Below, piece after piece: positions 10,015 to 32,612 of a stretch of 49,470 nt of DNA; the stretch's first letter is position 1; every line of letters starts with the position of its first letter. Both the position numbers and the translations under genes were made by a program. The notes under the pieces are model-generated. The model saw only the letters and a program-made list of their open reading frames with translations, was not told the DNA's origin and did no database searches. Location: contig JAKQLP010000051.1 in NCBI GenBank assembly GCA_029567095.1, positions 1 to 49,470 on the forward strand, written 5' to 3'. The DNA comes from a bacterium. GTDB lineage: Bacteria; Patescibacteriota; Dojkabacteria; B142; OLB20.

Positions 10015-12975
10015 ATGGCTTATTACACTTCAAAATTTAAGTTAAATAACAAAAGAAAAACTCCCTACACTAGGAAATGGACTTCTATGAGAAGTTCAGG
10101 TAAACGTAAATGGTTAAGGATAAATAAGGCTAAGTTTAAAAAGGCTTTCTATGTATTTCTGACGGTGCTTTTAATTGTTGGGATAGTCGGAGGTGTTTAT
10201 CTATTTGGCTGGTTACAAACTCTTACTGAACAATTACCAAGTCCAGACAAGCCTTTCGGTCAAAAAAGCGCTGCTAGTGAAATCTACGACAGGAATGGGA
10301 AATTGCTATACAGAATATATGGTGATGAAAATCGCGACCCTATTAAAATGGAGGAAGTCCCACAATTAATGAAATGGTCTCTACTGGCCGCTGAAGATAT
10401 CGATTTTTATAAGCATTCTGGTGTTGACCTTATTGCCGTTATTAGATGTGGTATAGCTAATTTGGCGAAAACATCTGCATGTGGAGGTTCTACCATAACT
10501 CAGCAATTAATAAAACAAACAGCTCTTACTAATGAAAGAAGTTGGGAGAGAAAGATCAAAGAAGTGATTTTGGCATTAGAGATTGAGAAACAACGAAGCA
10601 AAGATGAGATATTAGAGATGTATTTAAATGTAATCCCCGAAGGCAGCAATATTTATGGAGTAAAAAGAGCTGCTTATGAATATTTTGGAAAAGATATTAC
10701 AGAATTAAACCTGGCTCAATATGCTATTCTGGCCTCAATCCCTCAAGATCCCAATAACCTCTCCCCTACCCGGTCGGCAAATGCTGAGTCTAAACAGAAA
10801 GTTAAAGATAGGCAAATGTATGTTCTAAGTCAGATGGAGAAATATAAGGATCAAATTAATGCCGCAATTAAAGAAGAGACAGGTGCTACAGAAGATGTCC
10901 TTACAACTGAAATGATCGAGGAGGCCAGAAACTTTGAATTAGTATACACAACTGCAAAAAAGAAGGACGAATTGAAAGCTCCTCATTTTGTTTTTTATGT
11001 GCAGAAATTACTCATGGAGCGTGGTTACAATAATGGTGAACCATTCTCTAAAGAAGCCCTGTCTACGGGGGGATATAAAATAACTACAACTTTAAATCTT
11101 GATTATCAAGAAATTGCTGAGGAACAGGTTAAAGAAGGTGTTGATGCTTATGGTAGTAAATTTGGAGCTGAGAATGCTGCCTTAATTGCTATGAATCCTC
11201 GAAACGGTGAAATCTTAGCGATGGTTGGCTCAAAAGATTATTTCGGGACATCTTCTCCAGAAGGTTGCAGTGGTGCATCCTGTAAATTCGCTCCAGAGGT
11301 AAATATCTTAGATACACTTCAATCCTATGGGTCTAGTATGAAGCCAATGTTCTATTACTATGCATTAGAAAAAGGGCTGATTTCAGCAGGATCAATGATC
11401 CCAGATGTTCCTATTCAGATTGGAAATTATAAGCCAAAGAACTACAGTAACAACTTTACAGGTATTAGGACTGCCAGAAAACAATTAACTGATTCGCAGA
11501 ACATTCCTCCAATCTATATGGTCGATCAATTAGGAGTTGCTAATTTTGTGCAGGAGATGCAAAGTTGGGGTTACACAACCTTAAATGACCCTCGAGGCTA
11601 TGGACCCTCAATTGTTGTAGGGGGAGCCGATGTGAAGTTGATCGAACATGCTCAAGCATATGGAGTATTAGCCAATGAAGGCAAGCTAGTTAAACATGAA
11701 GCCGTATTAAAGATAGTAGATAGAGATGGCAATGAAGTTTTTAATTATCAGCCACAAGAAGAACAGGTTGCAGATCCAAGAGGTACTTTCATAATTAATG
11801 ACATTTTGAATGCCAATAGAGGCGGTCCTGGGGTAAATAAAAGCAATGGAGGTAAGGATTATAGTGGTTGGGACTATAGAGATATCGCAGGTAAGACTGG
11901 AACATCTGAAGATTACAAAGAAACATTGTTTGCAACCTATACCCCAGAAATTGTTGTCTTGGGTTGGTTAGGCAATAATAATAATGAACCAATGTCTTAT
12001 GGAGCCTCAGGTTTCGGATCGGCTCGACCTTGGATCTCTAAGTTTGTACTTAGGATCGGCAATACTTTCCCCCCTACCCCCTTCTCAAGGCCAGCCGGAG
12101 TAGTATCTAAATCTAATTGTGAAGGTGCTGAAGGTACATGCGAAGGTGTAGGAAATGATTTGGGGATAGTTGATATTTCAGTCCCATCTTATATTAATGT
12201 AAAACCATACACAGTCTGTACTGATCAGCCAGATCATTTAGCTAGGCAAATTGACATTGATATGGGGTTAGCAACAACTGTGAATATTAAGCAGTACATT
12301 ATGCCAAACACTAAACTGCAATCATATCTTGATACTTATGTCCAAAGTAAGCCTGAGCTTAATGGTATAGTGCCTACTGAGTACTGCACAATCAATAGAA
12401 ATCCCAGTGGTACAGACTCTCCCTGGGCAGCAGTATCAGCGCCAACTTCAGGTCAATTGGTGACTGGGGGCAACGTGAATCTTCAATTCAATGCTTACAC
12501 TCCAAATGCTGGTGCTGGTGTTACTTCAGTAAAAGTTTATCTGGATAATTCGTCAACGCCTTTACTCACAGCAACAACCCTCCCCTATTCTGGTTCTGTG
12601 AGTATTGGAACCATTGGTGGAGGTATGCATAATCTTAAATTTGTGGTTAAAGACACGCTTGGCAACGAGGGCACAACAACGGTTCCTATCGAGGTGTTAG
12701 GGTCTATCTCAATTTCAGGAACGAGCAATCTGAATAATATCTCTCCTTCTCAAGAGGTTACAATTAGTTATAGCTATTCGGTTTCCGGCCTAGCTTTAGA
12801 AGGCGTTTCCCTATTCCTAGATGGAACCAAAGTAGGCACCTGTGTTTCAGGTAATAGTGGTACATGTATATTTACCGCTCCTGAAGCACCTGGTAATTAT
12901 ACTCTCTATGTTACAGGAAGCAGGCAGGGACAAAATATTAAGAGTAATGAGGAAGCAATGCGAGTTAGACCTTAA
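10015..12975 (+). CDS. Class A penicillin-binding protein (glycosyltransferase GT51 + transpeptidase) with a C-terminal extension of two Ig-like domains
   Basis: Basic cytoplasmic tail plus one TM. GT51 motifs EDIDFYKHSGVD, GGSTITQQL and RKIKE. The transpeptidase region has SSMKP (SxxK) and KTGTS. The last ~250 aa are beta-rich Thr/Ser/Gly repeats resembling bacterial Ig-like folds. Confidence 0.85.
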   Translation: MAYYTSKFKLNNKRKTPYTRKWTSMRSSGKRKWLRINKAKFKKAFYVFLTVLLIVGIVGGVYLFGWLQTLTEQLPSPDKPFGQKSAASEIYDRNGKLLYRIYGDENRDPIKMEEVPQLMKWSLLAAEDIDFYKHSGVDLIAVIRCGIANLAKTSACGGSTITQQLIKQTALTNERSWERKIKEVILALEIEKQRSKDEILEMYLNVIPEGSNIYGVKRAAYEYFGKDITELNLAQYAILASIPQDPNNLSPTRSANAESKQKVKDRQMYVLSQMEKYKDQINAAIKEETGATEDVLTTEMIEEARNFELVYTTAKKKDELKAPHFVFYVQKLLMERGYNNGEPFSKEALSTGGYKITTTLNLDYQEIAEEQVKEGVDAYGSKFGAENAALIAMNPRNGEILAMVGSKDYFGTSSPEGCSGASCKFAPEVNILDTLQSYGSSMKPMFYYYALEKGLISAGSMIPDVPIQIGNYKPKNYSNNFTGIRTARKQLTDSQNIPPIYMVDQLGVANFVQEMQSWGYTTLNDPRGYGPSIVVGGADVKLIEHAQAYGVLANEGKLVKHEAVLKIVDRDGNEVFNYQPQEEQVADPRGTFIINDILNANRGGPGVNKSNGGKDYSGWDYRDIAGKTGTSEDYKETLFATYTPEIVVLGWLGNNNNEPMSYGASGFGSARPWISKFVLRIGNTFPPTPFSRPAGVVSKSNCEGAEGTCEGVGNDLGIVDISVPSYINVKPYTVCTDQPDHLARQIDIDMGLATTVNIKQYIMPNTKLQSYLDTYVQSKPELNGIVPTEYCTINRNPSGTDSPWAAVSAPTSGQLVTGGNVNLQFNAYTPNAGAGVTSVKVYLDNSSTPLLTATTLPYSGSVSIGTIGGGMHNLKFVVKDTLGNEGTTTVPIEVLGSISISGTSNLNNISPSQEVTISYSYSVSGLALEGVSLFLDGTKVGTCVSGNSGTCIFTAPEAPGNYTLYVTGSRQGQNIKSNEEAMRVRP

Positions 12976-15410
12976 TTGTTTCTGACTTTTGCTTTGATTT
13001 TTTCTTCCAGAACCTTAACGATCTTATCCATTTGATCATTAATTTCTGTATCAGTCAATGTTCTTTCCAGGCTTTGAAATTTCAACGATATTGTAATACT
13101 CTTATTCCCTTCCTCTTTGTACATATCTTTAAACTCGATCCCAATTAAATATTCAAGATTAAGGGAATTTATCGAGTTCTCGATATCTGAATAAATAGCA
13201 TTATCGGGGATAAAAAAGCTCAGATCTCTTTTAACTTTTTGATAGATTGATATTGGGCTGTACTCTTTACTAAATGTAGCAAGTTTGGAAATTGCGCTTA
13301 AATCTAATTCCCAGTAAGCAATATTGCCTTTGATATTTAAATCCATTTTAATTTTGGGATGAAGTTCAGAAATGACACCAATAATCTCCTCATTTAAATA
13401 GATCCCAGCACTTCTACCAGGATGGAAAATGTTTTTAAGATTTTCAAATCTTCCTCTAATCGTTTTACTAAATTTAAGATTAATATTTAAACCTTCTGCC
13501 AAAGACATCAAGCTTGTTTTAATTTGATAAAAAAGTAATTTGTGCTCTTTAGAAAAAGATAAAGCGGCAATATTCTCGGGCTGAATATTCAATTTGGTTT
13601 CAGGATCTATATCCTTAAAAATTACCCTGCCCTTTTCATAAATTGAAAACTCGTCATAGTTGCTCGCATTTAACAGTGCTTTATCGATCAAATTTGGAAT
13701 CAAACTAGTTCTTAACAACTCCAATTCAGGTGAAAGTGGATTGATAAGTTTTACATTATCTTTTGAATTTAAACTCAGTCGCTCCAATAATTGTTTTCCG
13801 ATGAAAGTATATGAGTAAATTTCATCAAATCCTTCAGAAGCCATGATTTCTCCAATTAATCTGTTGATTTGAAGTCCTTTATTTGGAATAACTGCTTGTA
13901 AGTCTCTTTCGGGCAATGTTGGAGTTAATTTATCGTATCCATACAGTCGGGCAATCTCTTCAAGTAAATCTTGTTCGATATTTAAATCTCCTCTAAATTT
14001 TGGAATTTTAACACTTATTGGAAGATTACTTTCCGGAGTGCTACTTATATTAGGTACTCTTTCAGGATCAAGGATCTCACAATTTATTCTTTCCAGATAA
14101 TCAATAATTTCTCTAACGGGAAGATCGATTCCTAAAATCCTTTTTACTAGGGTCAAATCCAATTCAATTACTTTTTGCTCCCGAGGATTAGGATAGTAAT
14201 CGATTAGCTCATGAGCAATTTCTCCTTCAGCAAGATCCAAAATTAAATTGAGAGCCTGTTTGATTGAGTTTTCCGTTTTCTCAGGATTTTGACCTTTCTC
14301 AAATCTAGTGCTGGCTTCGCTTCTAATCCCTAATTTCCTCGATGTTCGACGAACTGAATACATATTAAAGTTTGCAGCTTCGATTAAAATGTTTTTAGTC
14401 TCGAAGCTTATTTCTGAACTTAGCCCTCCCATAATGCCAGCAATATCATCAACTTGATTGCCATTACTGATCACCATCATATCGTCTTCCAATCTATATT
14501 CTTTTCCATCTATAGCTTTCATCTTCTCCCCGTTTTTGGCATATCTTACTATTAATTTTTTTGAGGTGATCTTATCATAATCGTATGTATGCAAAGGCTG
14601 GCCTTTATCAAACATAATATAATTCGCGGCATCTACAATATTGTTGACACTTCTTAATCCAGTAGCGGTTAATAAACAAATTAACCATAAAGGAGATTTA
14701 ATAACTTTAATATCTGATAAGATGGCTAGACTAAATCGTTCACAATCTTTATTGTCAACTTTAACGCTAAGATCGAATGGTAACTCAGAGGTAGGAACAA
14801 TTGGTTGATTAATCTCATCTTGTTTAAAAGGAATATTTAATATTGCCGATATCTCTCTGGCAATCCCTTCGTGAGAAAAACAATCAGGCCTGTGAGATAA
14901 TGATTTGTTTTCTATCTCGTAAACAAAGTCTTTTAAAATCTCATCTAAATTAGTGCCTGGAACTAATTGGTCTTCTAATTCCATAATACCTTCGTGATCA
15001 TTGCTTATTCCTAATTCTTTGGCAGAACATATCATTCCATTTGATGTAATCCCAAACATGGTTTTTTGGGTGATCTCAATAGTCTTTCCTTCATTATGTG
15101 CATCGTAAATTCTACCGCCAGGCATGCAAACAGCAACCTTCAGCCCCTTTTTTACATTAGGAGCTCCACAGATAATGTCGTTTATAGTATTGTCACTAAC
15201 TCGAACCTTACAGTATGTTAATTTCTTGCTTTCTTCAATTTTATTGACCTCTAGAACTTCACCAACAATAATCTTGTCAATTTCTCTTCTAATGGCAATG
15301 ATCTGCTCGACCTCTGCTAACTTTGTGGTGAGGCTCTCAGCAATTTGAGCTTTGGTTAACTCATCTAGAGTGGGAAGATATTTTTTTAACCATTTATGAG
15401 AAATCAGCAT
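12972..15410 (-). CDS. pheT: Phenylalanine--tRNA ligase beta subunit
   Basis: MLISHKWLKKYL start, tRNA-binding (EMAP-like) N-domain, B3/4 and B5 regions, and a position immediately downstream of pheS. Confidence 0.9.
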   Translation of the reverse strand: MLISHKWLKKYLPTLDELTKAQIAESLTTKLAEVEQIIAIRREIDKIIVGEVLEVNKIEESKKLTYCKVRVSDNTINDIICGAPNVKKGLKVAVCMPGGRIYDAHNEGKTIEITQKTMFGITSNGMICSAKELGISNDHEGIMELEDQLVPGTNLDEILKDFVYEIENKSLSHRPDCFSHEGIAREISAILNIPFKQDEINQPIVPTSELPFDLSVKVDNKDCERFSLAILSDIKVIKSPLWLICLLTATGLRSVNNIVDAANYIMFDKGQPLHTYDYDKITSKKLIVRYAKNGEKMKAIDGKEYRLEDDMMVISNGNQVDDIAGIMGGLSSEISFETKNILIEAANFNMYSVRRTSRKLGIRSEASTRFEKGQNPEKTENSIKQALNLILDLAEGEIAHELIDYYPNPREQKVIELDLTLVKRILGIDLPVREIIDYLERINCEILDPERVPNISSTPESNLPISVKIPKFRGDLNIEQDLLEEIARLYGYDKLTPTLPERDLQAVIPNKGLQINRLIGEIMASEGFDEIYSYTFIGKQLLERLSLNSKDNVKLINPLSPELELLRTSLIPNLIDKALLNASNYDEFSIYEKGRVIFKDIDPETKLNIQPENIAALSFSKEHKLLFYQIKTSLMSLAEGLNINLKFSKTIRGRFENLKNIFHPGRSAGIYLNEEIIGVISELHPKIKMDLNIKGNIAYWELDLSAISKLATFSKEYSPISIYQKVKRDLSFFIPDNAIYSDIENSINSLNLEYLIGIEFKDMYKEEGNKSITISLKFQSLERTLTDTEINDQMDKIVKVLEEKIKAKVRNN

Positions 15411-15412
15411 CT

Positions 15413-16456
15413 TTAAAATTGTTTAATAAAATCAAGATCACCACTATTGAAAAGACGAATATCATTAATATTGTTTTTTAGCATGATTAGTCTTTCTAAT
15501 CCAAATCCCCAGGCAAATCCGGAATAGGTTTTAGGATCTATTCCGGCCATTTCCAATACCTTGGGATGGATCATGCCACAGCCTAAGAGTTCTAGCCAAC
15601 CTGTTTGTTTACATACTTTACAGCCTTCACCGTTACATAAAATGCAACTAAGAGACATCATGCCCCCAGGTTCTACAAATGGGAAGAAATCAGGAGTAAA
15701 TTTTACTGCCAAATCTTTTTTGTAATATTTACTGAAGAATTCTTTAAGAGTGCCTAACATATCTGGCAATGTGATCCCTTTATCAACATAAACCCCCTCT
15801 ACTTGGGTGAAAGTATGTTCATGTCTAGCGTCGGTAGCTTCATTCCTGAAGCATCTGCCTATGACTATAGCCCTTACAGGTGGCTTTTGTTGAGAAAGAA
15901 TCCTGTTTTGCATTGAAGAGGTGTGTGTTATGGCAATTTTACCCTGTTCAGTCCAGAAAGTATCCCAAGAATCTCTTGCAGGATGCCCGGGAGGAATATT
16001 TAAGGATTCAAAATTATGATAATCATCGTCTATTGCATATGGATAGTGAACTTCAAACCCCATTCGCATGAAAATATCTTCAACCTCTTCAATTGTAGTT
16101 GTAATGAGGTGTTTATGGCCTTTCTTGATACCAGACGGGGGGATTGAAATATCTATCTCTTCTTGTAGTTCAATAGCTTTGAGTTCCTTTTCCTTGATTT
16201 GTTTGATTTTCTCCTGAATTTTATTCTCAATTTGGGATTTAGCCAAATTGGATCTTTGTCCTAATTTAGCCTTCTGAGATGGTTCGGCATCTTTAATGCC
16301 TTTTAATATATCAATTAATTGAGATTTTCTCCCTAAATATTCTACGCGTAATGCTTCTAATATCTGTAGATTATCAGCTGCGTTAATCTTAGTACCTGCT
16401 TCATCTAACAGGGTATTGATCTTAGACAATAAATCCTCGACCTTTGAGTTTTCCAT
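15413..16456 (-). CDS. pheS: Phenylalanine--tRNA ligase alpha subunit
   Basis: Class II motif 2 (GRCFRNEATDARHEHTFTQVEG) and motif 3 (GFAWGFGLERLIML). It also has the CxxC-x3-CxxC knuckle insertion (CILCNGEGCKVCKQTGW) that I recall in Bacillus-type PheS. Confidence 0.9.
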   Translation of the reverse strand: MENSKVEDLLSKINTLLDEAGTKINAADNLQILEALRVEYLGRKSQLIDILKGIKDAEPSQKAKLGQRSNLAKSQIENKIQEKIKQIKEKELKAIELQEEIDISIPPSGIKKGHKHLITTTIEEVEDIFMRMGFEVHYPYAIDDDYHNFESLNIPPGHPARDSWDTFWTEQGKIAITHTSSMQNRILSQQKPPVRAIVIGRCFRNEATDARHEHTFTQVEGVYVDKGITLPDMLGTLKEFFSKYYKKDLAVKFTPDFFPFVEPGGMMSLSCILCNGEGCKVCKQTGWLELLGCGMIHPKVLEMAGIDPKTYSGFAWGFGLERLIMLKNNINDIRLFNSGDLDFIKQF

Positions 16457-16469
16457 ATTGACGGCAAAA

Positions 16470-16811
16470 TTATTTTACTTTAGCCACAACTGCAGAAAAT
16501 ACTTCTTTATGGTCTAAAGCTAGACCAGATAACATTTTTCTATTTAATTCAATATTCTTTGTCTTTAAGGCGTTAATGAACTCTGAGTATTTCATCCCTT
16601 CGCCTGATAAGGCAGCATTTATTCTCTCAATCCATAGTTCTCTGTACTGACCATATCTATGTCTGCGATGGGTCAAGGAATATTGGCCTGCGTGCATCAT
16701 TGCTTCATGCGCCCTCTTGTAAAGTTTGCTATTACTTAAGCGATAACCTTTGGTTTGGGCTAAGACCGCCTTATGTTTTCTATGTCTGGTTTGTCCTCTT
16801 TTAATTCTCAT
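16470..16811 (-). CDS. rplT: 50S ribosomal protein L20
   Basis: MRIKRGQTRHRKHK... start and the conserved infC-rpmI-rplT order. Confidence 0.9.
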   Translation of the reverse strand: MRIKRGQTRHRKHKAVLAQTKGYRLSNSKLYKRAHEAMMHAGQYSLTHRRHRYGQYRELWIERINAALSGEGMKYSEFINALKTKNIELNRKMLSGLALDHKEVFSAVVAKVK

Positions 16812-16813
16812 AA

Positions 16814-17011
16814 TTATTTATTCATTAATTTAACGATTTTTTTAATATCACCTTTATTAGTCAACACATGACTGCCCTTTTTACGGGCTTTTTGACCTCT
16901 ATCTTTATTGGCCTTAAGATGAGAATTATCACCTTGAGAATAGTGCCTTATTTGACCTGAGGCGGTTTTTTTAAATCTTTTAGCTGTTGCTTTGTGTGTT
17001 TTTGCTTTCAT
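16814..17011 (-). CDS. rpmI: 50S ribosomal protein L35
   Basis: MKAKTHKATAKRFKKTASGQI... is a typical L35 N-terminus. Confidence 0.9.
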   Translation of the reverse strand: MKAKTHKATAKRFKKTASGQIRHYSQGDNSHLKANKDRGQKARKKGSHVLTNKGDIKKIVKLMNK

Positions 17012-17585
17012 TTTCAGTTAATTTAATATTCTTAATTGGTCTAACTATCCAAAATATATTTCTACCTTCTTGTTTTGCCGATTCATTAGATTCTTGAATT
17101 GAATCTACAAGTGCTAACTTAATCCTTTCCAATAGAGCCCAAAGTTGAACAGCTTGGACCCTACCCTTTCCTCTAATTGTAATTTTAACAGGATGTTTCT
17201 TACTTAGAAACTCTTTTATTCTTTCAATCTTATGCTGAAAGTCGCCATCCCCAATAAATGCTTTAAACCACATTTCCTTCATTTCTATTGTTTTTCCTTT
17301 ATTTTCCTTTTTCTTTTTCTCCTGCTGATACTTGAATTTGGACCAGGAAAGGATTTTTGCAACCGGAGGTTCGGCAGTAGGCGCTACCTCGATCAAATCC
17401 AATTCTTGTTCTTTTGCAATCCTTAACGCCTCAAACTTATTCAAAACCCCTAATTGAGTCCCATCCGAATCAATGACCATTAAAGTATTTGCAGTAATAG
17501 ACTCGTTGATTTTGTATCTCGAATCCTGTCTTTGAGGTTGGTATTTATTAAATTGTCTATACGGTCTTCTAAAAGGTACTATAAT
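16980..17585 (-). CDS. infC: Translation initiation factor IF-3, probable non-AUG (AUU/AUA) start
   Basis: The frame is open upstream of the track ATG (17480) up to 17600 and encodes ..RYKINESITANTLMVIDSDGTQLGV, the conserved IF3 N-domain start that must precede the track Met. There is no in-frame ATG upstream. ATT at 17585 and ATA at 17582 are candidates. The 3' end overlaps rpmI by 32 nt. Confidence 0.8.
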   Translation of the reverse strand: MIVPFRRPYRQFNKYQPQRQDSRYKINESITANTLMVIDSDGTQLGVLNKFEALRIAKEQELDLIEVAPTAEPPVAKILSWSKFKYQQEKKKKENKGKTIEMKEMWFKAFIGDGDFQHKIERIKEFLSKKHPVKITIRGKGRVQAVQLWALLERIKLALVDSIQESNESAKQEGRNIFWIVRPIKNIKLTENESKNTQSNS

Positions 17586-17658: not shown

Positions 17659-19395
17659 TTAAAAGGCTTTTTGGGAGATTTCATCCTTAATTCTGTCGAT
17701 AAATTCTTCAATTCTGATCAACCCCAGTTCCTGACCGGTTCTTTGCCTTAATGATACTGAGTTTGTATTAACCTCTTTTTCTCCTAGGATCAACATGTAT
17801 GGTATATTTTCGTTCTCGGCTCTTCTAATTTTATTCTGCATGGTTTCAGGTTCCAAATTAACGCTAGCTCGCAATCCAACATTTAATAATTGTTTTTGAA
17901 TATTTAAAGCTTGTTCATGGAATTTTTCTGAGATCGCAATAATGACACATTGTACAGGAGCTAGCCATACATCGAATATCCCTTCATTTTTTTCCAGCAT
18001 GATTTTCAGCATAGCTTCGAATGATTCAACAAAATTGAATCGAACAACCACCGGGATTTCCTTAAGATTATCATTATTAATATAGTAAAGCTCTTCTTTG
18101 CTTGCTGAAGTGTTATCGATGCGAATAGTTGAGATCTTTAATAAATTACCAAGCAAGTCTTTAACATAAAAACCAATCTCAGCCCCATTGTTATAGTAAT
18201 CTGACGCCACTATCTTAGCGGCTAGCTTTTGTTTTGCCAAAGTCTTTTCAAGTAATTTCAGCATATTTTTAGGATTATTCTCTTTAGTTGATTTCAATTT
18301 TGGATCGCTTAGCTTTACCAGGATCTGAAAGTCATTTACCCCTATGAATTGAAGCAACTGTCTTGTAAGCCCAAGTAATGTCCCGATCTCTTCTTCTACT
18401 TGATCTGCTCTGCAAAAGATATTTGTTTGTAAGGTCTGACTGTATTCAATATCCATTGGGGCTTCGGCAGGATTCTGCTTATATAGATCAAAATATTCCG
18501 CATACCTTTGAGGCATTTGTCTATAGCTTTTTTTAGTGCTTTTAAAAACAACTGCGTGATGAAAGAAAGAATCATTTCGAAATAAATACTCATTTCTATT
18601 TGTTTTTATCAGGGCCAAATATTGATCTCTGACCTTGGAATCTTCGAAATAATCACGGTATAGAGTGAATTTAGCCAAAGAAGGAGTTGAGAGCTTAATA
18701 ATCCCTAATTTTGATAATTTATCAAATAAAAATTTTTTTAATTCTTCCCTGATAATATCTCCCTTGGGAAGCCAGATCATGAGATTATTTCCAATATCAT
18801 CATCAAATGTTATTAGATTTAAACGTCGTCCGATCTTGCGATAGTCTTTTTGAATTATTTCCTTCTGAGATTCAAGATAGGTCAAAAGATCTTGTTCTTG
18901 ATTAAAGGCAACACCTTCGATCCTTTGTAGCTTCGGTCTGTTCTTTTCACCTAGCCAATGGGATGAAGAAATCCTGGTTAATTTAAAAAACCCTGCCTGT
19001 CCGGTATGTGCAAGATGGGGACCGCGACATAGATCATAAAAATCTCCAGTTTTAAAGAAACTAACTGATTCATCTGGAATTTGCCTGAGTAGTTCAGTCT
19101 TAAATATTTGACCTGACTGCATTAAGGTATCAAAAGCTTGTTCTTTGGGTATTATTATCTGTTTGAATGGCAATTCTTCAGCAATGATCTTCCGCATTTC
19201 CGCTTCAATCTTAGGTAAATCCTTCATAGTCAATTTGATTGGTGCATCAACCTCATAGTAGAAGCCGTTTTCAATGGCAGGTCCAATCCCGATCTTCGTA
19301 TTGGGATAAAGCCTTATAATTGCCATAGCCAATATATGAGCCATGCTATGTCTCATCAATTCCTGAGCTGCTTGTTTTTGAGAAGCGTCGTTCAT
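17659..19395 (-). CDS. Threonyl-tRNA synthetase-like protein: no TGS domain, editing domain apparently intact, class II catalytic site residues substituted
   Basis: The whole length aligns with E. coli ThrRS as I recall it. RHSMAHILAMAI matches the HxxxH motif and DLCRGPH matches the CRGPH motif of the editing site. DYRKIGRRLNL, SYRQMPQRYAEY and WLAPVQCVII match core and anticodon-domain landmarks. The catalytic positions differ; see findings. Confidence 0.75.
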   Translation of the reverse strand: MNDASQKQAAQELMRHSMAHILAMAIIRLYPNTKIGIGPAIENGFYYEVDAPIKLTMKDLPKIEAEMRKIIAEELPFKQIIIPKEQAFDTLMQSGQIFKTELLRQIPDESVSFFKTGDFYDLCRGPHLAHTGQAGFFKLTRISSSHWLGEKNRPKLQRIEGVAFNQEQDLLTYLESQKEIIQKDYRKIGRRLNLITFDDDIGNNLMIWLPKGDIIREELKKFLFDKLSKLGIIKLSTPSLAKFTLYRDYFEDSKVRDQYLALIKTNRNEYLFRNDSFFHHAVVFKSTKKSYRQMPQRYAEYFDLYKQNPAEAPMDIEYSQTLQTNIFCRADQVEEEIGTLLGLTRQLLQFIGVNDFQILVKLSDPKLKSTKENNPKNMLKLLEKTLAKQKLAAKIVASDYYNNGAEIGFYVKDLLGNLLKISTIRIDNTSASKEELYYINNDNLKEIPVVVRFNFVESFEAMLKIMLEKNEGIFDVWLAPVQCVIIAISEKFHEQALNIQKQLLNVGLRASVNLEPETMQNKIRRAENENIPYMLILGEKEVNTNSVSLRQRTGQELGLIRIEEFIDRIKDEISQKAF

Positions 19396-19411
19396 TTGAA
19401 GTTTATTAAAA

Positions 19412-19484
19412 TGGACACTACAGGACTCGAACCTGTGACCATTCGCACGTCAAGCGAATGCTCTACCAACTGAGCTAAGTGTCC
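19412..19484 (-). tRNA. tRNA-Val (anticodon GAC), CCA not encoded
   Basis: Folded by hand. Acceptor GGACACT/AGTGTCC, D arm GCTC-AGTTGGTA-GAGC, anticodon stem TTCGC/GCGAA with loop TT-GAC-GT, T arm ACAGG-TTCGAGT-CCTGT. Confidence 0.9.
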
Positions 19485-19515
19485 AAAATACTAAAAAATT
19501 ATACACTGCACTAAG

Positions 19516-20124
19516 TTATTTGTCATTAGAGGTTATTATCTTGTCGATCAGCCCATATTTCAAAGCTTCTTCAGCGCTCATATGTTTGTCACGATCTGAA
19601 TCTTGGGTGATGCGTTCATAACTTTGACCGGTATTCTTACTTAAAATGTTTGTTAACAGATCTTTTAGACGCAATATTTCTTTAGCCTCGATCTCGATAT
19701 CGCTTGCCTGGCCGGAGATGCCCCCACTTACTAGAGGCTGGTGAATATGGATCATACTATTTGGCAAGGAGAACCTTTTACCTTTAGTTCCGGATGAAAG
19801 AATAACTGTTCCAAATGAAGCTGTTGAGCCAATGGCTACAGTTACTATATCTGGTTTGACAAGCTTCATGGTGTCAATAATGGCTAGGCCTGCATAGATA
19901 TGTCCTCCCGGACTGTTGATATATAGGGTGATATCCTTTTGAGGATCTTCTTTATCAAGGAATAATAATTGGGCGACTACTGCGTTAGCCACCTGGTCAT
20001 CTATAGCAGTACCTAAGAAGATTATCCTTTCTTTCAATAATCTGGAATAAATATCGTAAACCCTCTCCCCTTCTCTACTTTTTTCAATGACCGAGGGAAT
20101 TAAATAGCTCATTGATTTACTCAT
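19516..20124 (-). CDS. clpP: ATP-dependent Clp protease proteolytic subunit
   Basis: [30 protein letters not shown], the catalytic Ser context GSTASFG, and the His context HIHQPL. Confidence 0.9.
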
Positions 20125-22256: not shown

Positions 22257-22505
22257 TTAATCAGGATATTTTATCCTTTTCTCTTCAACCACCGTTATTA
22301 TATTAAAATTATGCTCTTCAAGTGTGCCTATTACCAGATGGTTAGAAATTTTGAGTTTATAATAATCACTATTATGCATTTTTAAAAGTGAGTGCTTACT
22401 CTGAGTGTCGTGGATTTTCCCTAGTGTAGACACGATTTTTTGTCTAACTCTCCAGTCGATATTAATTAAATCTTCTTTAGCTTTCGTTGTGTATACAATA
22501 CCCAT
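22257..22505 (-). CDS. RelE/ParE-superfamily-like toxin (82 aa)
   Basis: Size, the position directly after a small RHH protein, and the pattern ...KAKEDLINID..VRQKI...L......YYKLKISNHLVIGTLEE.NFNIITVVEEKRIKY resemble RelE/ParE. Canonical RelE catalytic arginines are not obvious. Confidence 0.45.
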   Translation of the reverse strand: MGIVYTTKAKEDLINIDWRVRQKIVSTLGKIHDTQSKHSLLKMHNSDYYKLKISNHLVIGTLEEHNFNIITVVEEKRIKYPD

Positions 22506-22513: not shown

Positions 22514-22774
22514 TTATTCAGGTTTAAACATCTTTTCTATCTCTTCCTGTTCGTACTTTGGCCCTTCCAAAATGGCCATATCAGCTATATTCGAGTAATA
22601 GCCGTCTTTAACTTTCTCTTCAAGCTCTTGAAGCATGGTCTTGATCTGATTTCTTACTAAAGCTGAGGGAGATATCCCAAGTCTAGTAGCAAAATAAAAA
22701 AGCTGCCTCTTTTCTTCGGGTTGTAATCTAACTGCGATTTGTGTTGTCTTATTATTTTTCATATTGTCAGACAT
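22514..22774 (-). CDS. Ribbon-helix-helix (CopG/MetJ-like) putative antitoxin
   Basis: IAVRLQPEEKRQLFYFATRLGISPSALVRNQI fits the RHH beta-strand plus two helices. The track start at 22804 is TTG. ATG at 22774 (MSDNMKNNK) or at 22762 is more likely. Confidence 0.5.
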   Translation of the reverse strand: MSDNMKNNKTTQIAVRLQPEEKRQLFYFATRLGISPSALVRNQIKTMLQELEEKVKDGYYSNIADMAILEGPKYEQEEIEKMFKPE

Positions 22775-22927
22775 TGTCTCTTGGTGGCAAAAATTGTAAT
22801 ACAACCAGGTAGAATATGCAAATCTATGAAACTATAGGACGGGCATTTTAAACATCAATTTTTACTATAAGACTATTGTATCGGGTGGTAAACAATTAGA
22901 ATGCAATTTAAATCACTTTCTTCATAC

Positions 22928-23996: not shown

Positions 23997-25895
23997 TTAG
24001 ACTAGTTTGGCTTTAATTCTTCTAATACCACCACCAATATTTTCCTGGGAAACGATTTTGAATTTTTTATTCCCCTTCCCAATAATTGAAGTGTTCTCTA
24101 CATGAGGTCCTCCACAGAATTCTTTACTAATATATTCTCCTTTATCGTTTTTAATAAAATAAACGCTGACAATCTCAGGGTACTTCTGCCCAAATTCCAT
24201 CTCGGCACCCATTTTTTCAGCATCCTCCCTCTTTAACTCTATTCTTTCAACTTTATATCCAGCAGAAATATTTTCATTAACTTTCTTCTCAACAGCTTCA
24301 ATTTGTTCCGGTGTTAATTTTGAGGAATAATTAAAATCGATCCTAAGTCTTTCTCCGGTAATATTACTTCCCCTTTGTTTAATTTCTGGAGATACTATAC
24401 TTTGTAAGGCATTTAGAAGCAGATGGTGAGTTGTATGCAATTTAATTACCTCCTCACTTTGATCAGCTAGTCCTCCTTTGAATTTTTGTTCTGCTCCACT
24501 TCGAGACATAGCTTTATGGGCCTCCTCTTCCTTTTTAAACTCACTAAGTACTCTTTCAGATTCATTTTCGTCTAGTGCAAACTCCTCTATGGTCATCTCT
24601 ATGGGGTAACCATAAGTCTCATAAAAGTAAAATGCCTTTTTACCATCCAGTCTTTCATTTCTGATTTTAAATTTCTCAATTTCCTTCAGGCCATTTGATA
24701 ATGTCTTCCTAAAATTATTCTCCTCTGCTGTTATTAATTCAATAATTTGAGTTCTATTTTGCTCTAGCTGAGGATAGATATCTTTCATGCGCTCAACAAC
24801 TACCACAGCAACTTCAGAAGTAAAATTTTTCTCAATATTTAATTTCTTTCCAAACCTAATCATACGCCTTATGAAGCGGCGAAGAATATATCCTTGATCT
24901 TTATTTGACGGCCTCACGCCATCTGCAAGTATAAAAACGGAAGCACGAGCATGATCAGCAATTACTCGGAAAGCACTCGTATAATCGTTATTCTCACCAT
25001 TATCCTTTTTGTAATTTAAAGAAGTTAATTCTTCAACCTTTTTAATAATAGGTAAGAATAGGTCTGTTTCAAAAATATCTCTTACATTAGCAAGACACAT
25101 TACTGCCCTCTCAAATCCTCCTCCAAAATCAATATTTTTTTGCTTTAAAGGTTGCCAAACTAGATCTTTATCTAGAAAGTATTCCATGAATACATTATTA
25201 CCAATCTCCACGAATCTTCCTGAATCATCATTAATATGGTATTTATCTTGAACTTTTTCTGGTTGCCCCATATCAAAGAAAATCTCAGAACTGGGCCCAC
25301 CTAGCTCCCCTGCTGCCTCTCCCCTTTGCCACCAGTTTTTTGATTTTGGATATGGAAAAATTCTCGCTTTATGATCAATTCCCTGCTCGAGATTAAAAGG
25401 CACATCATATATATCTTCACTAAATTCAGCCTCAATTCCATATTTTTTAAATGTTTTGATCCAGGTCTCGATAGCTAGATTGTCACGGGGAATTACTTCA
25501 TCTCCACCCCATACCGACACATATATTCTTTTTGGATCAAATCCGAAATGTTCGATATATAATTCCATGATCCAGGGTATTTGACTAGTTTTATCAAAAT
25601 CCCCCAAAGACCAATTCCCCATCATCTCAAACATGATTGAGTGTCTATTATCACCTACTTCTAGCACTTCTTCATATTTCGGTCTTAGACAGCGTTGCAG
25701 ATTATATAACCTATTACCCAAAGGATGTGGTTGCCCAGCTAAATAAGGAGCTAAAGGAAACATTCCTGAATTTACAAATAATAAGGTTGAGTCCACATTA
25801 GGAACAAGGGATACATTGGGTACCTCTTTATGGTTTCTGGGGGCGCTTGACCAAAACTCGTGATATTTTTTTCTAATCGTATCAGATAAATACAT
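23997..25895 (-). CDS. alaS: Alanine--tRNA ligase, short form lacking the C-Ala domain
   Basis: DSTLLFVNSGM, QRCLR and HSIMFEMMGNWSLGDF (catalytic core). The editing domain has HTTHHLL and CGGPHV. The track start at 25901 is TTG. ATG at 25895 (MYLSDTIRKKY) is the likely start. Confidence 0.85.
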   Translation of the reverse strand: MYLSDTIRKKYHEFWSSAPRNHKEVPNVSLVPNVDSTLLFVNSGMFPLAPYLAGQPHPLGNRLYNLQRCLRPKYEEVLEVGDNRHSIMFEMMGNWSLGDFDKTSQIPWIMELYIEHFGFDPKRIYVSVWGGDEVIPRDNLAIETWIKTFKKYGIEAEFSEDIYDVPFNLEQGIDHKARIFPYPKSKNWWQRGEAAGELGGPSSEIFFDMGQPEKVQDKYHINDDSGRFVEIGNNVFMEYFLDKDLVWQPLKQKNIDFGGGFERAVMCLANVRDIFETDLFLPIIKKVEELTSLNYKKDNGENNDYTSAFRVIADHARASVFILADGVRPSNKDQGYILRRFIRRMIRFGKKLNIEKNFTSEVAVVVVERMKDIYPQLEQNRTQIIELITAEENNFRKTLSNGLKEIEKFKIRNERLDGKKAFYFYETYGYPIEMTIEEFALDENESERVLSEFKKEEEAHKAMSRSGAEQKFKGGLADQSEEVIKLHTTHHLLLNALQSIVSPEIKQRGSNITGERLRIDFNYSSKLTPEQIEAVEKKVNENISAGYKVERIELKREDAEKMGAEMEFGQKYPEIVSVYFIKNDKGEYISKEFCGGPHVENTSIIGKGNKKFKIVSQENIGGGIRRIKAKLV

Positions 25896-26411
25896 CAGCA
25901 AAATGATAACTATGAAATTATATTATATATATTCAATAAGCGAAACTAAGTTAGAAAGTATAAAACGATTAACTATGGGTTTTATCACTAATGGTGGATG
26001 TTCTTCAATCATTCTTTGAAATTCTAAGATTGATACTATCATTAACATAAATCACCTAAATTAATAATTAAGTATAAGAATAAAAACAATCAGGAATTAA
26101 ATAGCATTCACAACAAGAATTGTGGATGAATTGTGATAAAGTGTCTCCCCTATAGATCGTTTTTGAATCAGTAAGCGTGCATTTAAAATGAGCAGATCTA
26201 TTAATTCTTAGTATCATAATATGAATCCGTTTATTGTAAAGTCGTAGTAAATCACATAGTTGAAGAGGGCCGTAAGTAGCGTCTTTTAATTTGTGTTTTT
26301 TATCTTTGATATCAAAACTTTGATATTCTAATTATTCGGAAATTTTTCGGATTGGTGTGCGAACCTCCTATTACCATTTCTTATCAATGTATTTTAGCGC
26401 GATGTGTATTA

Positions 26412-31482: not shown

Positions 31483-32612
31483 TGTTGTTTACTAAAATTT
31501 TCTTGCAAAGCCTCTGATGATGCAATTAATTGTTGATTTTGTTCGTAAAGAGCGTCAATCTGAGCCTTCAGACTTTGGATCTGTTCTTCAGTTGGAGGTT
31601 CCGGTAAATCTTGTAGTGCTCGTGTTAATGTTTGGAGTTTAGCGGCTTCTAAATCCATTGTTAATGTTTGATCTTTACCTGGCCCAAACAAATCTTCGTA
31701 TGCGCTAAGTAATAATTGTTGCCTTTCATCTCTGGCCAAGTTAGGATCTGCAGCTTGTTTAATTGCAGCTTTCCTTTCAGCATCAATTGCTTTTTCTTCT
31801 TCTTCTTCCTTTTTAGCCTCAGCTTGTTTTTTAATTTTGTCATTTAAATTTTTAGCAGCTACCATTCGAGCAAATTGTTGATCCCAGCTATTAACATCAA
31901 TAATGTATTTGGGGTCGTAACTTGAATTTACCCATCTTAAAAGTCTATCAACAGCTTCTATGGTTTTTTTGTCAAAAAGTGCATATATTTCTTTAAATTT
32001 TACAAATACATTTTTAATATATTCACCTTTATCTTTATGATCAGTCTGCCATTTAGCAATCATATCCCTAATAATATGATCATTCTCCTGAAGCATCAAT
32101 TTGTACATACCTTCCACATTCATCATATTTGATATTTTAGGTCCTAACTGAGCTTGTTGGGCCGGAGGTAACTTTTTATATGCTTCAATTAAATAAGCAA
32201 CTTTCTCTTGGGCAAGAGCATTAACTTCATAGGGAATAGTTATGTAATTTCGTCTAGTTTGAAAATCCTTATACACTTTAATCAGATAATCGTAGAAAAT
32301 CACTTTGCCGGGTGGATTCTTTGCTTTTATATCATTGATCAAAGGCATTTTCCCAACAATTTCTACCTGATTTAAAGCACTCATTATCATATTCAATTGA
32401 GAATAGTCAGAGATTGGAATTTGGCCACCTTGATCTGTTCTTGAAATATCTCGTAGATATTTTACTGCAGCAATTGAATATTGAGCCGGGGCTTTGGGAT
32501 CATATGGATCTGGAGGGTATAATTTGACTCCAGCGTAATATGGAAAGCAAATATTTGGTAAAGACTGTTCGAGCCTCGTTATCGCATTTACTATGTCTGT
32601 AGTTTGTATCAT
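31479..32612 (-). CDS. Hypothetical soluble protein (377 aa) with a C-terminal charged coiled coil
   Basis: No TM or signal peptide. The C-terminal ~110 aa are heptad-like and charged (KKQAEAKKEEEEEKAIDAERKAAIKQA...SLKAQIDALYEQNQQL). Separated by 3 nt from the upstream gene and overlaps the downstream gene by 4 nt. Confidence 0.55.
   Translation of the reverse strand: MIQTTDIVNAITRLEQSLPNICFPYYAGVKLYPPDPYDPKAPAQYSIAAVKYLRDISRTDQGGQIPISDYSQLNMIMSALNQVEIVGKMPLINDIKAKNPPGKVIFYDYLIKVYKDFQTRRNYITIPYEVNALAQEKVAYLIEAYKKLPPAQQAQLGPKISNMMNVEGMYKLMLQENDHIIRDMIAKWQTDHKDKGEYIKNVFVKFKEIYALFDKKTIEAVDRLLRWVNSSYDPKYIIDVNSWDQQFARMVAAKNLNDKIKKQAEAKKEEEEEKAIDAERKAAIKQAADPNLARDERQQLLLSAYEDLFGPGKDQTLTMDLEAAKLQTLTRALQDLPEPPTEEQIQSLKAQIDALYEQNQQLIASSEALQENFSKQQ

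What the first reader, a model, noticed from the sequence alone, without database searches (positions are those of the whole stretch)
18001..18588. The gene in the canonical thrS position has lost the zinc ligands and invariant arginines of the ThrRS active site while keeping the editing site
**Alignment basis.** I aligned the protein by eye to E. coli ThrRS using unambiguous anchors (SYRdLPlRmAEf, IFC, PV...E.F, WLAPVQ).

**Substituted catalytic positions.**

| E. coli ThrRS residue | Role | Residue here | Local sequence |
|---|---|---|---|
| Cys334 | Zn ligand | Phe277 | NCPGH -> SFFHH |
| His385 | Zn ligand | Asn325 | DDAHIF -> LQTNIF |
| His511 | Zn ligand | Arg452 | MIHRA -> VVRFN |
| Arg363 | motif 2 arginine | Lys306 | CHRNE -> LYKQN |
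| Arg520 | motif 3 arginine | Ala461 | SMERF -> SFEAM |

**Retained features.**
- The N2 editing-domain residues are kept: HSMAH for H73/H77 and CRGPH for C182/H186, at nt ~18901-19353.
- The anticodon-binding domain looks normal.
- The TGS domain is absent, since the ORF starts 16 nt from tRNA-Val.

**Interpretation.** Established ThrRS biochemistry says the zinc ion is essential for threonine recognition and the two arginines for ATP binding and catalysis. This protein is therefore predicted to be unable to aminoacylate. It may still bind tRNA-Thr and deacylate Ser-tRNA-Thr in trans, or it may have a regulatory role. It still sits in the conserved thrS-infC-rpmI-rplT-pheST block, which is unexpected for a degenerate paralogue.
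Basis: partly seen in the sequence, partly recalled or inferred. Interest (0 to 1): 0.65.

Follow-up and report, generated by a model that had tools for sequence, protein, structure and literature searches.

The report
Catalytically dead ThrRS kept for proofreading
The gene sitting where threonyl-tRNA synthetase normally sits has lost every residue needed to charge tRNA, yet keeps its proofreading and tRNA-recognition parts under strong selection. A whole branch of Candidatus Dojkabacteria shares this, making it the likely bacterial counterpart of the split synthetase/editor pair known from some archaea.

Summary
In the 578-aa ORF at 17659-19395 (-), the ThrRS zinc ligands are F277, N325 and R452, and the motif 2/3 arginines are K306 and A461. 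The six editing residues and the anticodon-binding residues are intact.

It is not a one-off. Among the 120 best database hits, 31 proteins, some named Candidatus Dojkabacteria, form one clade. Their catalytic residues are scrambled in different ways, while their editing residues never vary. The nearest canonical relatives occupy the same slot before infC-rpmI-rplT-pheST, so this is the original thrS, not a stray paralogue.

The gene is not decaying. Non-synonymous divergence is 0.015 in the editing domain, 0.069 in the catalytic domain and 0.016 in the anticodon-binding domain, against saturated synonymous sites. The predicted fold is a full ThrRS (pLDDT 90).

Two genomes of the clade also carry a fully canonical thrS, one in tandem and one elsewhere. 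I could not show a second thrS in the window's own lineage.

Most likely it is a tRNA-Thr-specific trans-editing pseudo-synthetase, analogous to crenarchaeal ThrRS-ed and to zinc-free Anabaena T1. I found no prior description. Novelty: a new variant of a known kind. Interest 0.6.

The parts
17659..19395 (-). thrS-like ORF, 578 aa. Domains: N2 editing, degenerate class II core, anticodon-binding. No TGS domain.
   Evidence: TIGR00418 scores 403.6 bits against a cut-off of 383.65. AlphaFold2 model pLDDT 90.2. Foldseek TM 0.86 to S. aureus ThrRS 1nyq_B.
18901..19374 (-). N2 editing domain (residues 8-165). Editing residues are H16 and H20 (nt 19336-19350), K99 (19099-19101), and D121, C123 and H127 (19015-19035).
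   Evidence: All six residues are invariant in essentially all 122 aligned sequences. 23 of 29 canonical invariant positions are kept. pN 0.015 against the P0001 gene.
17986..18843 (-). Degenerate class II catalytic domain (residues 185-470). F277, N325 and R452 replace the zinc ligands. K306 and A461 replace the motif 2/3 arginines. Q323 replaces D383 and E406 replaces K465.
   Evidence: Only 27 of 74 canonical invariant positions are kept. Mean pairwise identity within the clade is 0.31, against 0.66 among canonical ThrRS. pN is 0.069, so the domain is still under purifying selection. The fold is retained.
17662..17967 (-). Anticodon-binding domain (residues 477-578), with E541, R550 and R552 equivalent to E. 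coli E600, R609 and R611.
   Evidence: Pfam HGTP_anticodon 77 bits. 11 of 13 canonical invariant positions are kept, and E600/R609/R611 are kept in 100% of the clade. pN 0.016.
19411..19485 (-). tRNA-Val(GAC), 15 nt upstream of the ORF start. Part of the conserved clpP-tRNA-Val-thrS* arrangement.
   Evidence: The same arrangement occurs in L097, L098, L015, L005 and L010.
19498..19526 (-). Promoter-like site (ATGACA-17-TATAAT, 11 of 12) just upstream of tRNA-Val. Possible shared promoter for tRNA-Val and the thrS-like gene.
   Evidence: The number of such sites in the region is not above chance, so this is only a lead.
12972..17480 (-). Downstream conserved block: infC (16980-17480), rpmI (16814-17011), rplT (16470-16811), pheS (15413-16456), pheT (12972-15410).
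   Evidence: The same order follows canonical ThrRS in relatives and in most Patescibacteria and Dehalococcoidia.
19516..20124 (-). clpP, the upstream neighbour in the conserved arrangement.

Best explanation
The gene is the ancestral, in-slot thrS of a large subclade of Candidatus Dojkabacteria (Patescibacteria). It has lost the aminoacylation active site and survives as a ThrRS-shaped pseudo-synthetase.

Shown:
- All zinc, threonine and ATP ligands are gone.
- The catalytic domain alone evolves fast, and differently in each lineage.
- The N2 editing site and the anticodon-binding residues are invariant and under very strong purifying selection.
- The whole ThrRS fold is retained.

Inferred:
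- The protein still binds tRNA-Thr through its anticodon-binding domain.
- It uses the dead catalytic domain as the scaffold, and probably the dimer interface, that holds the acceptor arm.
- It hydrolyses Ser-tRNA-Thr at the N2 site in trans.
- Thr-tRNA-Thr is made by a second, canonical ThrRS encoded elsewhere in the genome.
For: 1. Active site lost. Pfam class II core is below threshold.
2. Clade-wide, mosaic decay with one origin. 31 of the 120 best hits are degenerate, and they form one clade on a tree built from the N2 and anticodon-binding domains only. That clade is nested among canonical in-slot Dojkabacteria ThrRS. Canonical relatives P0089 and P0031 occupy the same slot.
3. Domain-specific constraint:
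   - Mean pairwise identity within the clade is N2 0.63, catalytic 0.31, anticodon-binding 0.54. Among canonical ThrRS the values are 0.68, 0.66 and 0.54.
   - Canonical invariant positions kept are 79%, 36% and 85%.
   - pN is 0.015, 0.069 and 0.016 against saturated pS. For comparison, pheS is 0.064 and pheT 0.134.
4. No new clade-wide conserved polar residues appear in the dead pocket.
5. Fold intact: pLDDT 90.2, TM 0.79-0.86 to full-length ThrRS structures.
6. Second canonical thrS in the clade:
   - L012 (720,856-bp contig) has a canonical 611-aa ThrRS directly upstream of degenerate P0039.
   - Canonical P0124 and degenerate P0017 share the 963,318-bp contig length and the assembly ERZ21831042.
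   - Out-of-slot canonical copies also occur in other Dojkabacteria genomes.
7. Experimental precedent: the Anabaena T1 zinc-ligand triple mutant has no aminoacylation but intact Ser-tRNA-Thr deacylation in trans (PMC4787780). Crenarchaeal ThrRS-cat and ThrRS-ed split the two functions (PMC3592468).
8. Fragments of the gene appear in four metatranscriptome assemblies, at depths similar to infC and rplT (weak evidence).
Against: - No second ThrRS was found for the window's own lineage. Contigs of 844-847 kb, 808 kb and 1.117 Mb, and the P0032 genome CP129475.1 (1.172 Mb), did not appear among the 120 best relatives of either canonical copy. The capped genome and metagenome scans did not reach them.
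- The companion ThrRS in relatives keeps all six editing residues. A dedicated trans-editor looks partly redundant there, and the selective reason for keeping it is not explained.
- The catalytic domain is still constrained (pN/pS about 0.08). The window subclade has 28 subclade-specific conserved positions in it, so a role beyond scaffold cannot be excluded.
- Early branches (P0024, P0029, P0039) keep the ATP-binding residues R363, E365, F379 and R520.
- No biochemical data exist. The expression evidence comes from contigs only.
Confidence: 0.55

Rival explanations
1. The protein binds tRNA-Thr but is not mainly an editor. It could act as a regulator of the downstream infC-rpmI-rplT-pheST genes, as a tRNA-Thr chaperone or sequestering factor, or as an obligate heterodimer partner that modulates the canonical ThrRS.
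For: - The anticodon-binding residues are 100% conserved.
- The gene keeps its position directly before infC across the clade.
- The companion ThrRS already has an intact editing motif.
- The motif 1 proline (E. coli P296) is kept in 97% of the clade.
- ThrRS heterodimers exist in Anabaena.
- E. coli ThrRS is a known translational autoregulator (own knowledge).
Against: - The six editing residues are invariant in every member, and N2 is the slowest-evolving part of the protein (pN 0.015). That would not be needed for regulation or for tRNA binding alone.
- No leader or operator RNA was found around the gene.
Confidence: 0.2
2. The catalytic domain has a new function. It may bind a different ligand or carry out a different reaction, as in HisZ, AsnA, EpmA/PoxA or amino acid:carrier-protein ligases derived from synthetases.
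For: - The domain is under purifying selection at the level of pheS.
- 28 positions are conserved only within the window subclade, including Y249-F250-E251 and Q323 in the former pocket.
- Early-branching members keep the ATP-binding residues but not the zinc site.
- P0030 and P0034 change only C334 and D383.
Against: - No replacement residue is conserved across the whole clade. The 13 clade-wide conserved positions are the structural ones shared with canonical ThrRS.
- The class II ATP-binding arginines are lost in the window lineage.
- The pattern looks like stepwise decay, not a new fixed site.
Confidence: 0.12
3. It is still the cell's only, active ThrRS and uses a non-canonical, zinc-free active site.
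For: - It sits in the thrS slot and passes the NCBIfam thrS cut-off.
- No second ThrRS was found for four near-complete genomes of the window and P0032 lineages.
Against: - Fifteen of the 17 active-site positions examined are replaced, including the class II motif 2 and motif 3 arginines needed for ATP binding in all class II synthetases (own knowledge).
- The replacements differ from lineage to lineage, which is incompatible with a conserved alternative chemistry.
- All characterised ThrRS need zinc (PMC4787780).
- Relatives demonstrably carry a canonical copy.
Confidence: 0.05
4. It is a pseudogene in slow decay with no function.
For: The catalytic domain evolves about 4.5 times faster than the flanking domains, and its residues are scrambled.
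Against: - The ORF is intact and full-length in more than 30 lineages down to 36% identity.
- pN/pS is 0.02-0.08 with synonymous sites saturated.
- The editing and anticodon residues are invariant.
- The fold is predicted with high confidence.
- Fragments are present in metatranscriptomes.
Confidence: 0.03

Closest known systems
Crenarchaeal ThrRS-ed with ThrRS-cat (Sulfolobus, Aeropyrum; Korencic et al. 2004 from own knowledge; summarised in PMC3592468)
   Same: - Both are ThrRS-derived proteins with an intact editing module, a degenerate catalytic domain and a retained anticodon-binding domain.
- Both coexist with a separate catalytically active ThrRS.
- The predicted job is the same: hydrolysis of Ser-tRNA-Thr in trans.
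   Different: [quoted passage not shown] The origin is therefore independent.
- The NCBIfam model for the archaeal hydrolase matches only the anticodon-binding end (61.9 bits against a cut-off of 362).
- The companion ThrRS seen in relatives keeps its own editing motif, whereas ThrRS-cat lacks an editing domain.
- Here the dead copy is the ancestral in-slot gene.
Anabaena duplicated ThrRS T1/T2: apo-T1 and the T1-SYY zinc-ligand mutant (Rubio et al. 2015, PMC4787780)
   Same: - A bacterial-type ThrRS subunit without zinc has no aminoacylation activity.
- It keeps full Ser-tRNA-Thr deacylation and works in trans beside a second ThrRS.
- It can form heterodimers with that second ThrRS.
   Different: - In Anabaena the switch is physiological and reversible (zinc loss), and T1 is a complete enzyme.
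- Here the loss is genetic and permanent, extends to the ATP site, and is fixed across a whole clade.
- T2 is editing-impaired through an insertion. The Dojkabacteria companions show no consistent impairment.
Free-standing editing proteins of the AlaX / tRNA_SAD family
   Same: They share the fold and the HxxxH plus CxxxH motif of the editing site, and they deacylate mischarged tRNA in trans.
   Different: AlaX proteins are small and lack the synthetase core and the anticodon-binding domain. This protein keeps the full ThrRS body and so, presumably, tRNA-Thr specificity.
Canonical bacterial ThrRS (E. coli 1qf6, S. aureus 1nyq)
   Same: - Domain order N2, class II core, anticodon-binding.
- Fold (TM 0.79-0.86).
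- Genomic position before infC-rpmI-rplT-pheST.
   Different: No zinc ligands, no motif 2/3 arginines and no threonine- or ATP-binding residues. No TGS domain, as is usual in Patescibacteria.

Membership tests
Bacterial-type threonine-tRNA ligase (TIGR00418) | Domain architecture N2 editing, class II core, anticodon-binding, with the ThrRS fold | tested here: met
   HMMER alignment covers residues 8-576 against 1nyq and 1qf6. TIGR00418 scores 403.6 bits against a cut-off of 383.65. Model TM 0.79-0.86 to full-length ThrRS.
Bacterial-type threonine-tRNA ligase (TIGR00418) | Catalytic zinc bound by Cys334, His385 and His511 (E. coli numbering) | tested here: not met
   The residues are F277, N325 and R452.
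Bacterial-type threonine-tRNA ligase (TIGR00418) | Class II motif 2 and motif 3 arginines and the other ATP/threonine ligands (R363, E365, R375, D383, K465, Q484, R520) | tested here: not met
   The residues are K306, N308, D315, Q323, E406, R425 and A461. Pfam tRNA-synt_2b scores 15.8 bits against a cut-off of 29.3.
Bacterial-type threonine-tRNA ligase (TIGR00418) | N2 editing-site residues H73, H77, K156, D180, C182 and H186 | tested here: met
   All six are present and invariant across the clade.
Bacterial-type threonine-tRNA ligase (TIGR00418) | Anticodon-binding domain with its conserved residues (E600, R609, R611) | tested here: met
   Pfam HGTP_anticodon 77 bits. The residues are kept in 100% of the clade.
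Bacterial-type threonine-tRNA ligase (TIGR00418) | Threonine activation and tRNA-Thr aminoacylation activity | not testable with these tools
   Needs ATP-PPi exchange and aminoacylation assays.
Archaeal Ser-tRNA(Thr) hydrolase ThrRS-ed (NF011500) | [quoted passage not shown] | tested here: not met
   NF011500 scores 61.9 bits against a cut-off of 362, and only over residues 468-575, the anticodon-binding end. The editing domain here is tRNA_SAD/N2.
Archaeal Ser-tRNA(Thr) hydrolase ThrRS-ed (NF011500) | Degenerate catalytic domain plus retained anticodon-binding domain | tested here: met
Archaeal Ser-tRNA(Thr) hydrolase ThrRS-ed (NF011500) | Companion catalytic ThrRS in the same genome that lacks editing | tested here: inconclusive
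   A companion canonical ThrRS was found in two genomes of the clade, but it keeps the editing residues. No companion could be located for the window's own lineage.
Archaeal Ser-tRNA(Thr) hydrolase ThrRS-ed (NF011500) | Ser-tRNA-Thr deacylase activity in trans | not testable with these tools
   Needs a deacylation assay. The precedent for a zinc-free bacterial ThrRS is in PMC4787780.
AlaX-type free-standing editing proteins | HxxxH and CxxxH motifs in a tRNA_SAD fold | tested here: met
   HSMAH and CRGPH are present. Pfam tRNA_SAD scores 44.7 bits.
AlaX-type free-standing editing proteins | Small stand-alone protein without synthetase core or anticodon-binding domain | tested here: not met
   The protein is 578 aa with a full ThrRS body. 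AlaXM scores 17.6 bits against a cut-off of 300.

The most novel reading that the evidence does not exclude
The window's own lineage may contain no canonical ThrRS at all. Near-complete genomes of 0.81-1.17 Mb carry P0001, P0006 and P0013, and the P0032 genome CP129475.1 is also relevant. None of these appeared among the relatives of the canonical second copy found in sister lineages. If so, Thr-tRNA-Thr would be made by a very divergent or non-homologous enzyme, by an indirect route, or with help from the host. The dead ThrRS would then be the only ThrRS-like protein left.
Probability: 0.06. Interest if true: 0.95.

Novelty: new variant of a known kind. Interest (0 to 1): 0.6.

Why it matters
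1. It would be the first bacterial, N2-type counterpart of the crenarchaeal ThrRS-ed. That means threonylation and proofreading were separated into two ThrRS genes independently in a second domain of life, here in a class-level lineage of the Candidate Phyla Radiation.

2. It is a natural, permanently fixed version of the zinc-free editing-only ThrRS subunit studied in Anabaena. The series of progressively decayed active sites shows the order of loss: first C334 and D383, then the whole zinc site, then the ATP site.

3. It has a practical consequence. The protein passes the NCBIfam thrS cut-off and is annotated as threonine--tRNA ligase. Genome completeness checks and metabolic reconstructions therefore count a dead enzyme as ThrRS, and the real one may be overlooked.

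4. Why a reduced-genome episymbiont pays for an extra 578-aa proofreading protein bears on how much mistranslation such organisms tolerate.

Tried and rejected
- **Second ThrRS inside the window.** Pfam scans of 30 window ORFs (all but one of the real ORFs of at least 100 aa, plus two smaller ones) found TyrRS, AlaRS and PheRS but no other ThrRS.
- **Contig-length fingerprinting.** It worked for P0017/P0124 (963,318 bp) and P0039/P0121 (720,856 bp). It gave nothing for 846,578, 844,019, 808,157, 1,116,673 or 1,172,464 bp.
- **GTDB genome scan with P0124.** It returned ordinary ThrRS of Patescibacteria and Dehalococcoidia and three Dojkabacteria genomes, but none of the target genomes. The scan depends on exact 8-residue words and keeps only the best 80.
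- **Further tandem pairs.** None were found in 160 fetched loci.
- **Conserved neighbours of the second copy.** There are none, and none lie in the window.
- **Representative-library search plus cluster look-ups.** No fingerprint emerged. The editing-dead, catalytically intact P0292 was looked up, but its organism could not be tied to the window.
- **Extending the window through its terminal gene** failed.
- **Jukes-Cantor dN/dS** could not be computed because synonymous sites are saturated. Raw pN and pS were used instead.
- **Leader or T-box RNA around the gene:** none found.
- **Literature.** Searches for ThrRS with Dojkabacteria, Patescibacteria or Candidate Phyla Radiation found no description of this protein.
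- **Insertion next to DxCRGPH in the companion ThrRS.** I considered that companions might be editing-impaired this way, as in Anabaena T2. The insertion is present in some (P0121, P0125, P0128, P0129, P0254) but absent in P0124 and most others, and it also occurs in sole-copy ThrRS of other Patescibacteria. This is not a consistent explanation.
Full report
**What is in the window**

The finding lies inside one ORF, 17659-19395 on the minus strand, encoding 578 aa. tRNA-Val(GAC) lies upstream at 19411-19485, 15 nt before the ATG, and clpP lies beyond that. Downstream are infC, rpmI, rplT, pheS and pheT.

Pfam recognises the tRNA_SAD editing domain (44.7 bits) and the HGTP anticodon-binding domain (77 bits). 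The class II core scores only 15.8 bits against a cut-off of 29.3. NCBIfam's thrS model still passes, at 403.6 bits against 383.65. That is why databases call such proteins threonine--tRNA ligase.

**Checking the observation**

HMMER aligns residues 8-576 end to end with the solved S. aureus (1nyq) and E. coli (1qf6) enzymes. I took the E. coli protein from NC_000913 and aligned it with the window protein and its 120 best database relatives.

Both alignments place F277, K306, N325, R452 and A461 at E. coli C334, R363, H385, H511 and R520. Of twelve further active-site residues examined, ten are also replaced: M332, E365, R375, F379, Q381, D383, Y462, K465, Q479 and Q484. Only T482 and S517 are kept.

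The editing residues H73, H77, K156, D180, C182 and H186 are all present. So are the anticodon-binding residues E600, R609 and R611.

**It is a clade, not an accident**

Among the 120 best hits, 31 proteins share the degenerate active site. Several are named Candidatus Dojkabacteria by NCBI. The canonical hits keep the 17 catalytic positions invariant or nearly so.

The replacements differ from lineage to lineage:
- P0030 and P0034 change only C334 and D383.
- P0024, P0029 and P0039 have lost the zinc site but keep R363, E365, F379 and R520.
- P0014 keeps H385, H511 and R520.
- The window subclade keeps none of these ligands.

The six editing residues are invariant in essentially all 122 sequences; the only gaps are at the missing N-termini of the shorter P0003 and P0028.

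A neighbour-joining tree was built only from the N2 and anticodon-binding domains, so that the fast catalytic domain could not distort it. It puts all degenerate sequences in one clade, nested among canonical sequences P0025, P0026, P0028, P0031, P0089, P0119 and P0035-37. The tree is NJ without support values, so branching order within the clade is provisional.

**It is the original thrS**

Canonical P0089 and P0031 sit in the same slot, followed by infC, rplT, pheS, pheT and a class A penicillin-binding protein gene. Degenerate P0001, P0013, P0017, P0032 and P0034 share the window's full synteny of alaS, murB, mutL, clpP, tRNA-Val, thrS*, infC and onward.

The degenerate gene is therefore the positional orthologue of a working thrS, not an extra copy.

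**Selection**

| Measure | N2 | Catalytic | Anticodon-binding |
|---|---|---|---|
| Mean pairwise identity, degenerate clade | 0.63 | 0.31 | 0.54 |
| Mean pairwise identity, canonical ThrRS | 0.68 | 0.66 | 0.54 |
| Canonical invariant positions kept in the window protein (at least 95% conserved in 252 canonical ThrRS) | 23 of 29 | 27 of 74 | 11 of 13 |
| pN against the P0001 gene | 0.015 | 0.069 | 0.016 |

The P0001 gene is 94% identical in protein and 80% in DNA. Synonymous sites are saturated (pS about 0.8). For comparison, pN is 0.064 for pheS, 0.056 for rplT and 0.134 for pheT.

So the gene is not a pseudogene. Its editing and anticodon-binding domains are among the most constrained sequences in the region. 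The catalytic domain is relaxed about 4.5-fold but is still selected.

Only 13 catalytic-domain positions are conserved across the whole clade. They are the structural residues shared with canonical ThrRS: G270, P296 of motif 1, S347-Y348, P352, E357, G463, D486 and E527. No new polar signature has appeared.

An AlphaFold2 model built on a 56-sequence alignment has pLDDT 90.2. It superposes on full-length S. aureus and E. coli ThrRS with TM 0.79-0.86. It superposes on the E. coli catalytic plus anticodon-binding fragment with a target-normalised TM of 0.92.

**Is there another ThrRS?**

The window contains none. In relatives the answer is yes, at least twice.

- **Tandem case.** On the 720,856-bp JGI contig carrying degenerate P0039, a 611-aa ThrRS lies immediately upstream (L012:8074-9909). 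It has every zinc, ATP, threonine and editing residue. It lies in a roughly 7.7-kb insert between tRNA-Val/tRNA-Ala and the degenerate copy. That looks like an insertion rather than an old tandem duplication.
- **Separate-locus case.** Its relative P0124 (66% identical, canonical) has the same longest-contig length, 963,318 bp, as degenerate P0017. Both also occur in ENA assembly ERZ21831042. P0124 lies at a different locus, next to glycogen-metabolism genes.

These out-of-slot copies belong to the ordinary ThrRS type of Patescibacteria and Dehalococcoidia, which in most of those genomes is itself the in-slot gene. On the NJ tree they form two groups:
- One contains P0121-P0125, P0128 and P0129, and lies next to Microgenomates and WWE3 sequences.
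- One contains P0196 of the complete Dojkabacteria genome CP129477.1, together with L044, P0210, P0243, P0149, P0135 and P0254.

This suggests acquisition by lateral transfer from other Patescibacteria, followed by loss of catalysis in the resident gene.

**What remains open**

I could not show a second copy in the window's own lineage. Contigs of 844,019/846,578 bp (P0001), 808,157 bp (P0006) and 1,116,673 bp (P0013), and CP129475.1 (1,172,464 bp, P0032), did not appear among the 120 best relatives of either canonical copy. A representative-library search with cluster look-ups did not help either.

This is a limit of the tools, not evidence of absence. It does leave a small chance that these genomes have only a very divergent ThrRS, or none.

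**Mechanism**

The retained parts are exactly those needed to recognise tRNA-Thr and to hydrolyse Ser-tRNA-Thr. The dead core connects them, and in canonical ThrRS it also forms the dimer and clamps the acceptor arm (established ThrRS structural knowledge, 1qf6).

Two precedents make trans-editing the most likely function:
- Crenarchaea split ThrRS into ThrRS-cat and ThrRS-ed. ThrRS-ed keeps a degenerate core and an anticodon-binding domain and edits in trans (PMC3592468; Korencic et al. 2004 from own knowledge).
- In Anabaena, a T1 mutant with all three zinc ligands replaced has no aminoacylation activity. It has wild-type Ser-tRNA-Thr deacylation, acts in trans on tRNA mischarged by T2, and heterodimerises with T2 (PMC4787780).

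The window protein looks like a genetically fixed version of that subunit.

The main weakness is that the companion ThrRS in relatives keeps its own editing residues. Some companions carry an insertion next to DxC(R/K)GPH, at the place where an insertion impairs T2, but not consistently. The selective reason for keeping a dedicated editor is therefore not established. A regulatory, chaperone or heterodimer role, or a subclade-specific new function of the core, remains possible.

**Expression and regulation**

Short contigs from four metatranscriptomes of sludge and digesters match parts of the gene, at depths like those of infC and rplT. This is weak evidence, because contigs only show presence and DNA can contaminate such libraries.

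No leader RNA was detected. The best promoter-like site lies just before tRNA-Val.

The organism occurs in activated-sludge, wastewater and digester metagenomes.

**Novelty**

Full-text searches combining ThrRS or tRNA synthetase with Dojkabacteria, Patescibacteria or Candidate Phyla Radiation found no description of this protein. Neither did a search for inactive ThrRS paralogues with trans-editing.

The kind of system is known: a ThrRS-derived editing-only protein beside a catalytic ThrRS. A bacterial, N2-type, clade-wide instance in which the ancestral in-slot gene is the one that died appears to be new. I rate it a new variant of a known kind, with interest 0.6.

Noticed in passing
L010:10001-11749 (P0034, GCA_964444125.1) and P0030; representative P0348: In-slot ThrRS with only the zinc ligand C334 (to T) and the threonine-hydroxyl ligand D383 (to A or I) changed. 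All the other catalytic residues examined are intact or conservatively substituted. It is either the first step of the decay or an enzyme with altered amino-acid specificity.
   Followed up: partly
L012:2188-11740 (JGI 3300076001 Ga0645781_00033): A roughly 7.7-kb insert lies between tRNA-Val/tRNA-Ala and the degenerate thrS. It carries a dockerin-like protein, a CarboxypepD_reg protein, a PAS-HisKA kinase and the canonical 611-aa thrS. It looks like an island inserted next to tRNA genes.
   Followed up: partly
L180:10001-11815 (P0292) and representatives P0346, P0325, P0411, P0412, P0422, P0425: These ThrRS show the opposite pattern: a fully canonical catalytic site but no editing residues (for example CYLDGH or LILDGE in place of HHKDCH). 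P0292 is 47-48% identical to the Patescibacteria type and comes from a 32% GC contig. Its organism is unknown.
   Followed up: partly
P0429 (653 aa): A TGS-containing ThrRS-like representative from an unrelated lineage, with G, K, C and G at C334, R363, R375 and K465 and most editing residues kept. Active-site loss in ThrRS paralogues may have happened more than once.
   Followed up: no
P0121, P0125, P0128, P0129, P0254: Insertions of 6-26 residues lie directly before the DxC(R/K)GPH editing motif in some out-of-slot ThrRS. This is the position of the insertion that impairs editing in Anabaena T2. Similar insertions occur in sole-copy ThrRS of other Patescibacteria (P0142, P0127, P0144).
   Followed up: partly
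window 23997-25901 (-): The AlaRS is only 634 aa and has a TTG start. It has a catalytic domain and a tRNA_SAD editing domain but no C-terminal C-Ala region. Relatives have the same short form (630-647 aa).
   Followed up: no
window 22257-22505 and 22514-22804 (-): Two small adjacent ORFs (82 and 96 aa) lie between mutL and murB. They have no Pfam match. A pair of about 82-87 aa occupies the same place in L097, L098, L015 and L005. Possibly a toxin-antitoxin-like pair.
   Followed up: no
window 35949-40970, 28999-31482, 33785-35458, 31479-33773 (-): A run of large ORFs (1673, 827, 557, 377 and 385 aa) without any Pfam match at E <= 1e-5.
   Followed up: no
L181:3902-4624: A 240-aa AlaX-like protein (tRNA-synt_2c plus a weak tRNA_SAD match) lies near clpP, in the genome that carries the canonical sister ThrRS P0031.
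   Followed up: no
loci L030, L032-L034, L042, L049, L051, L052 and others: Several GTDB records titled Gammaproteobacteria, Pseudomonadales or Chloroflexia carry Patescibacteria-type ThrRS on contigs of about 1 Mb or less. The record titles look like mislabelled bins.
   Followed up: no
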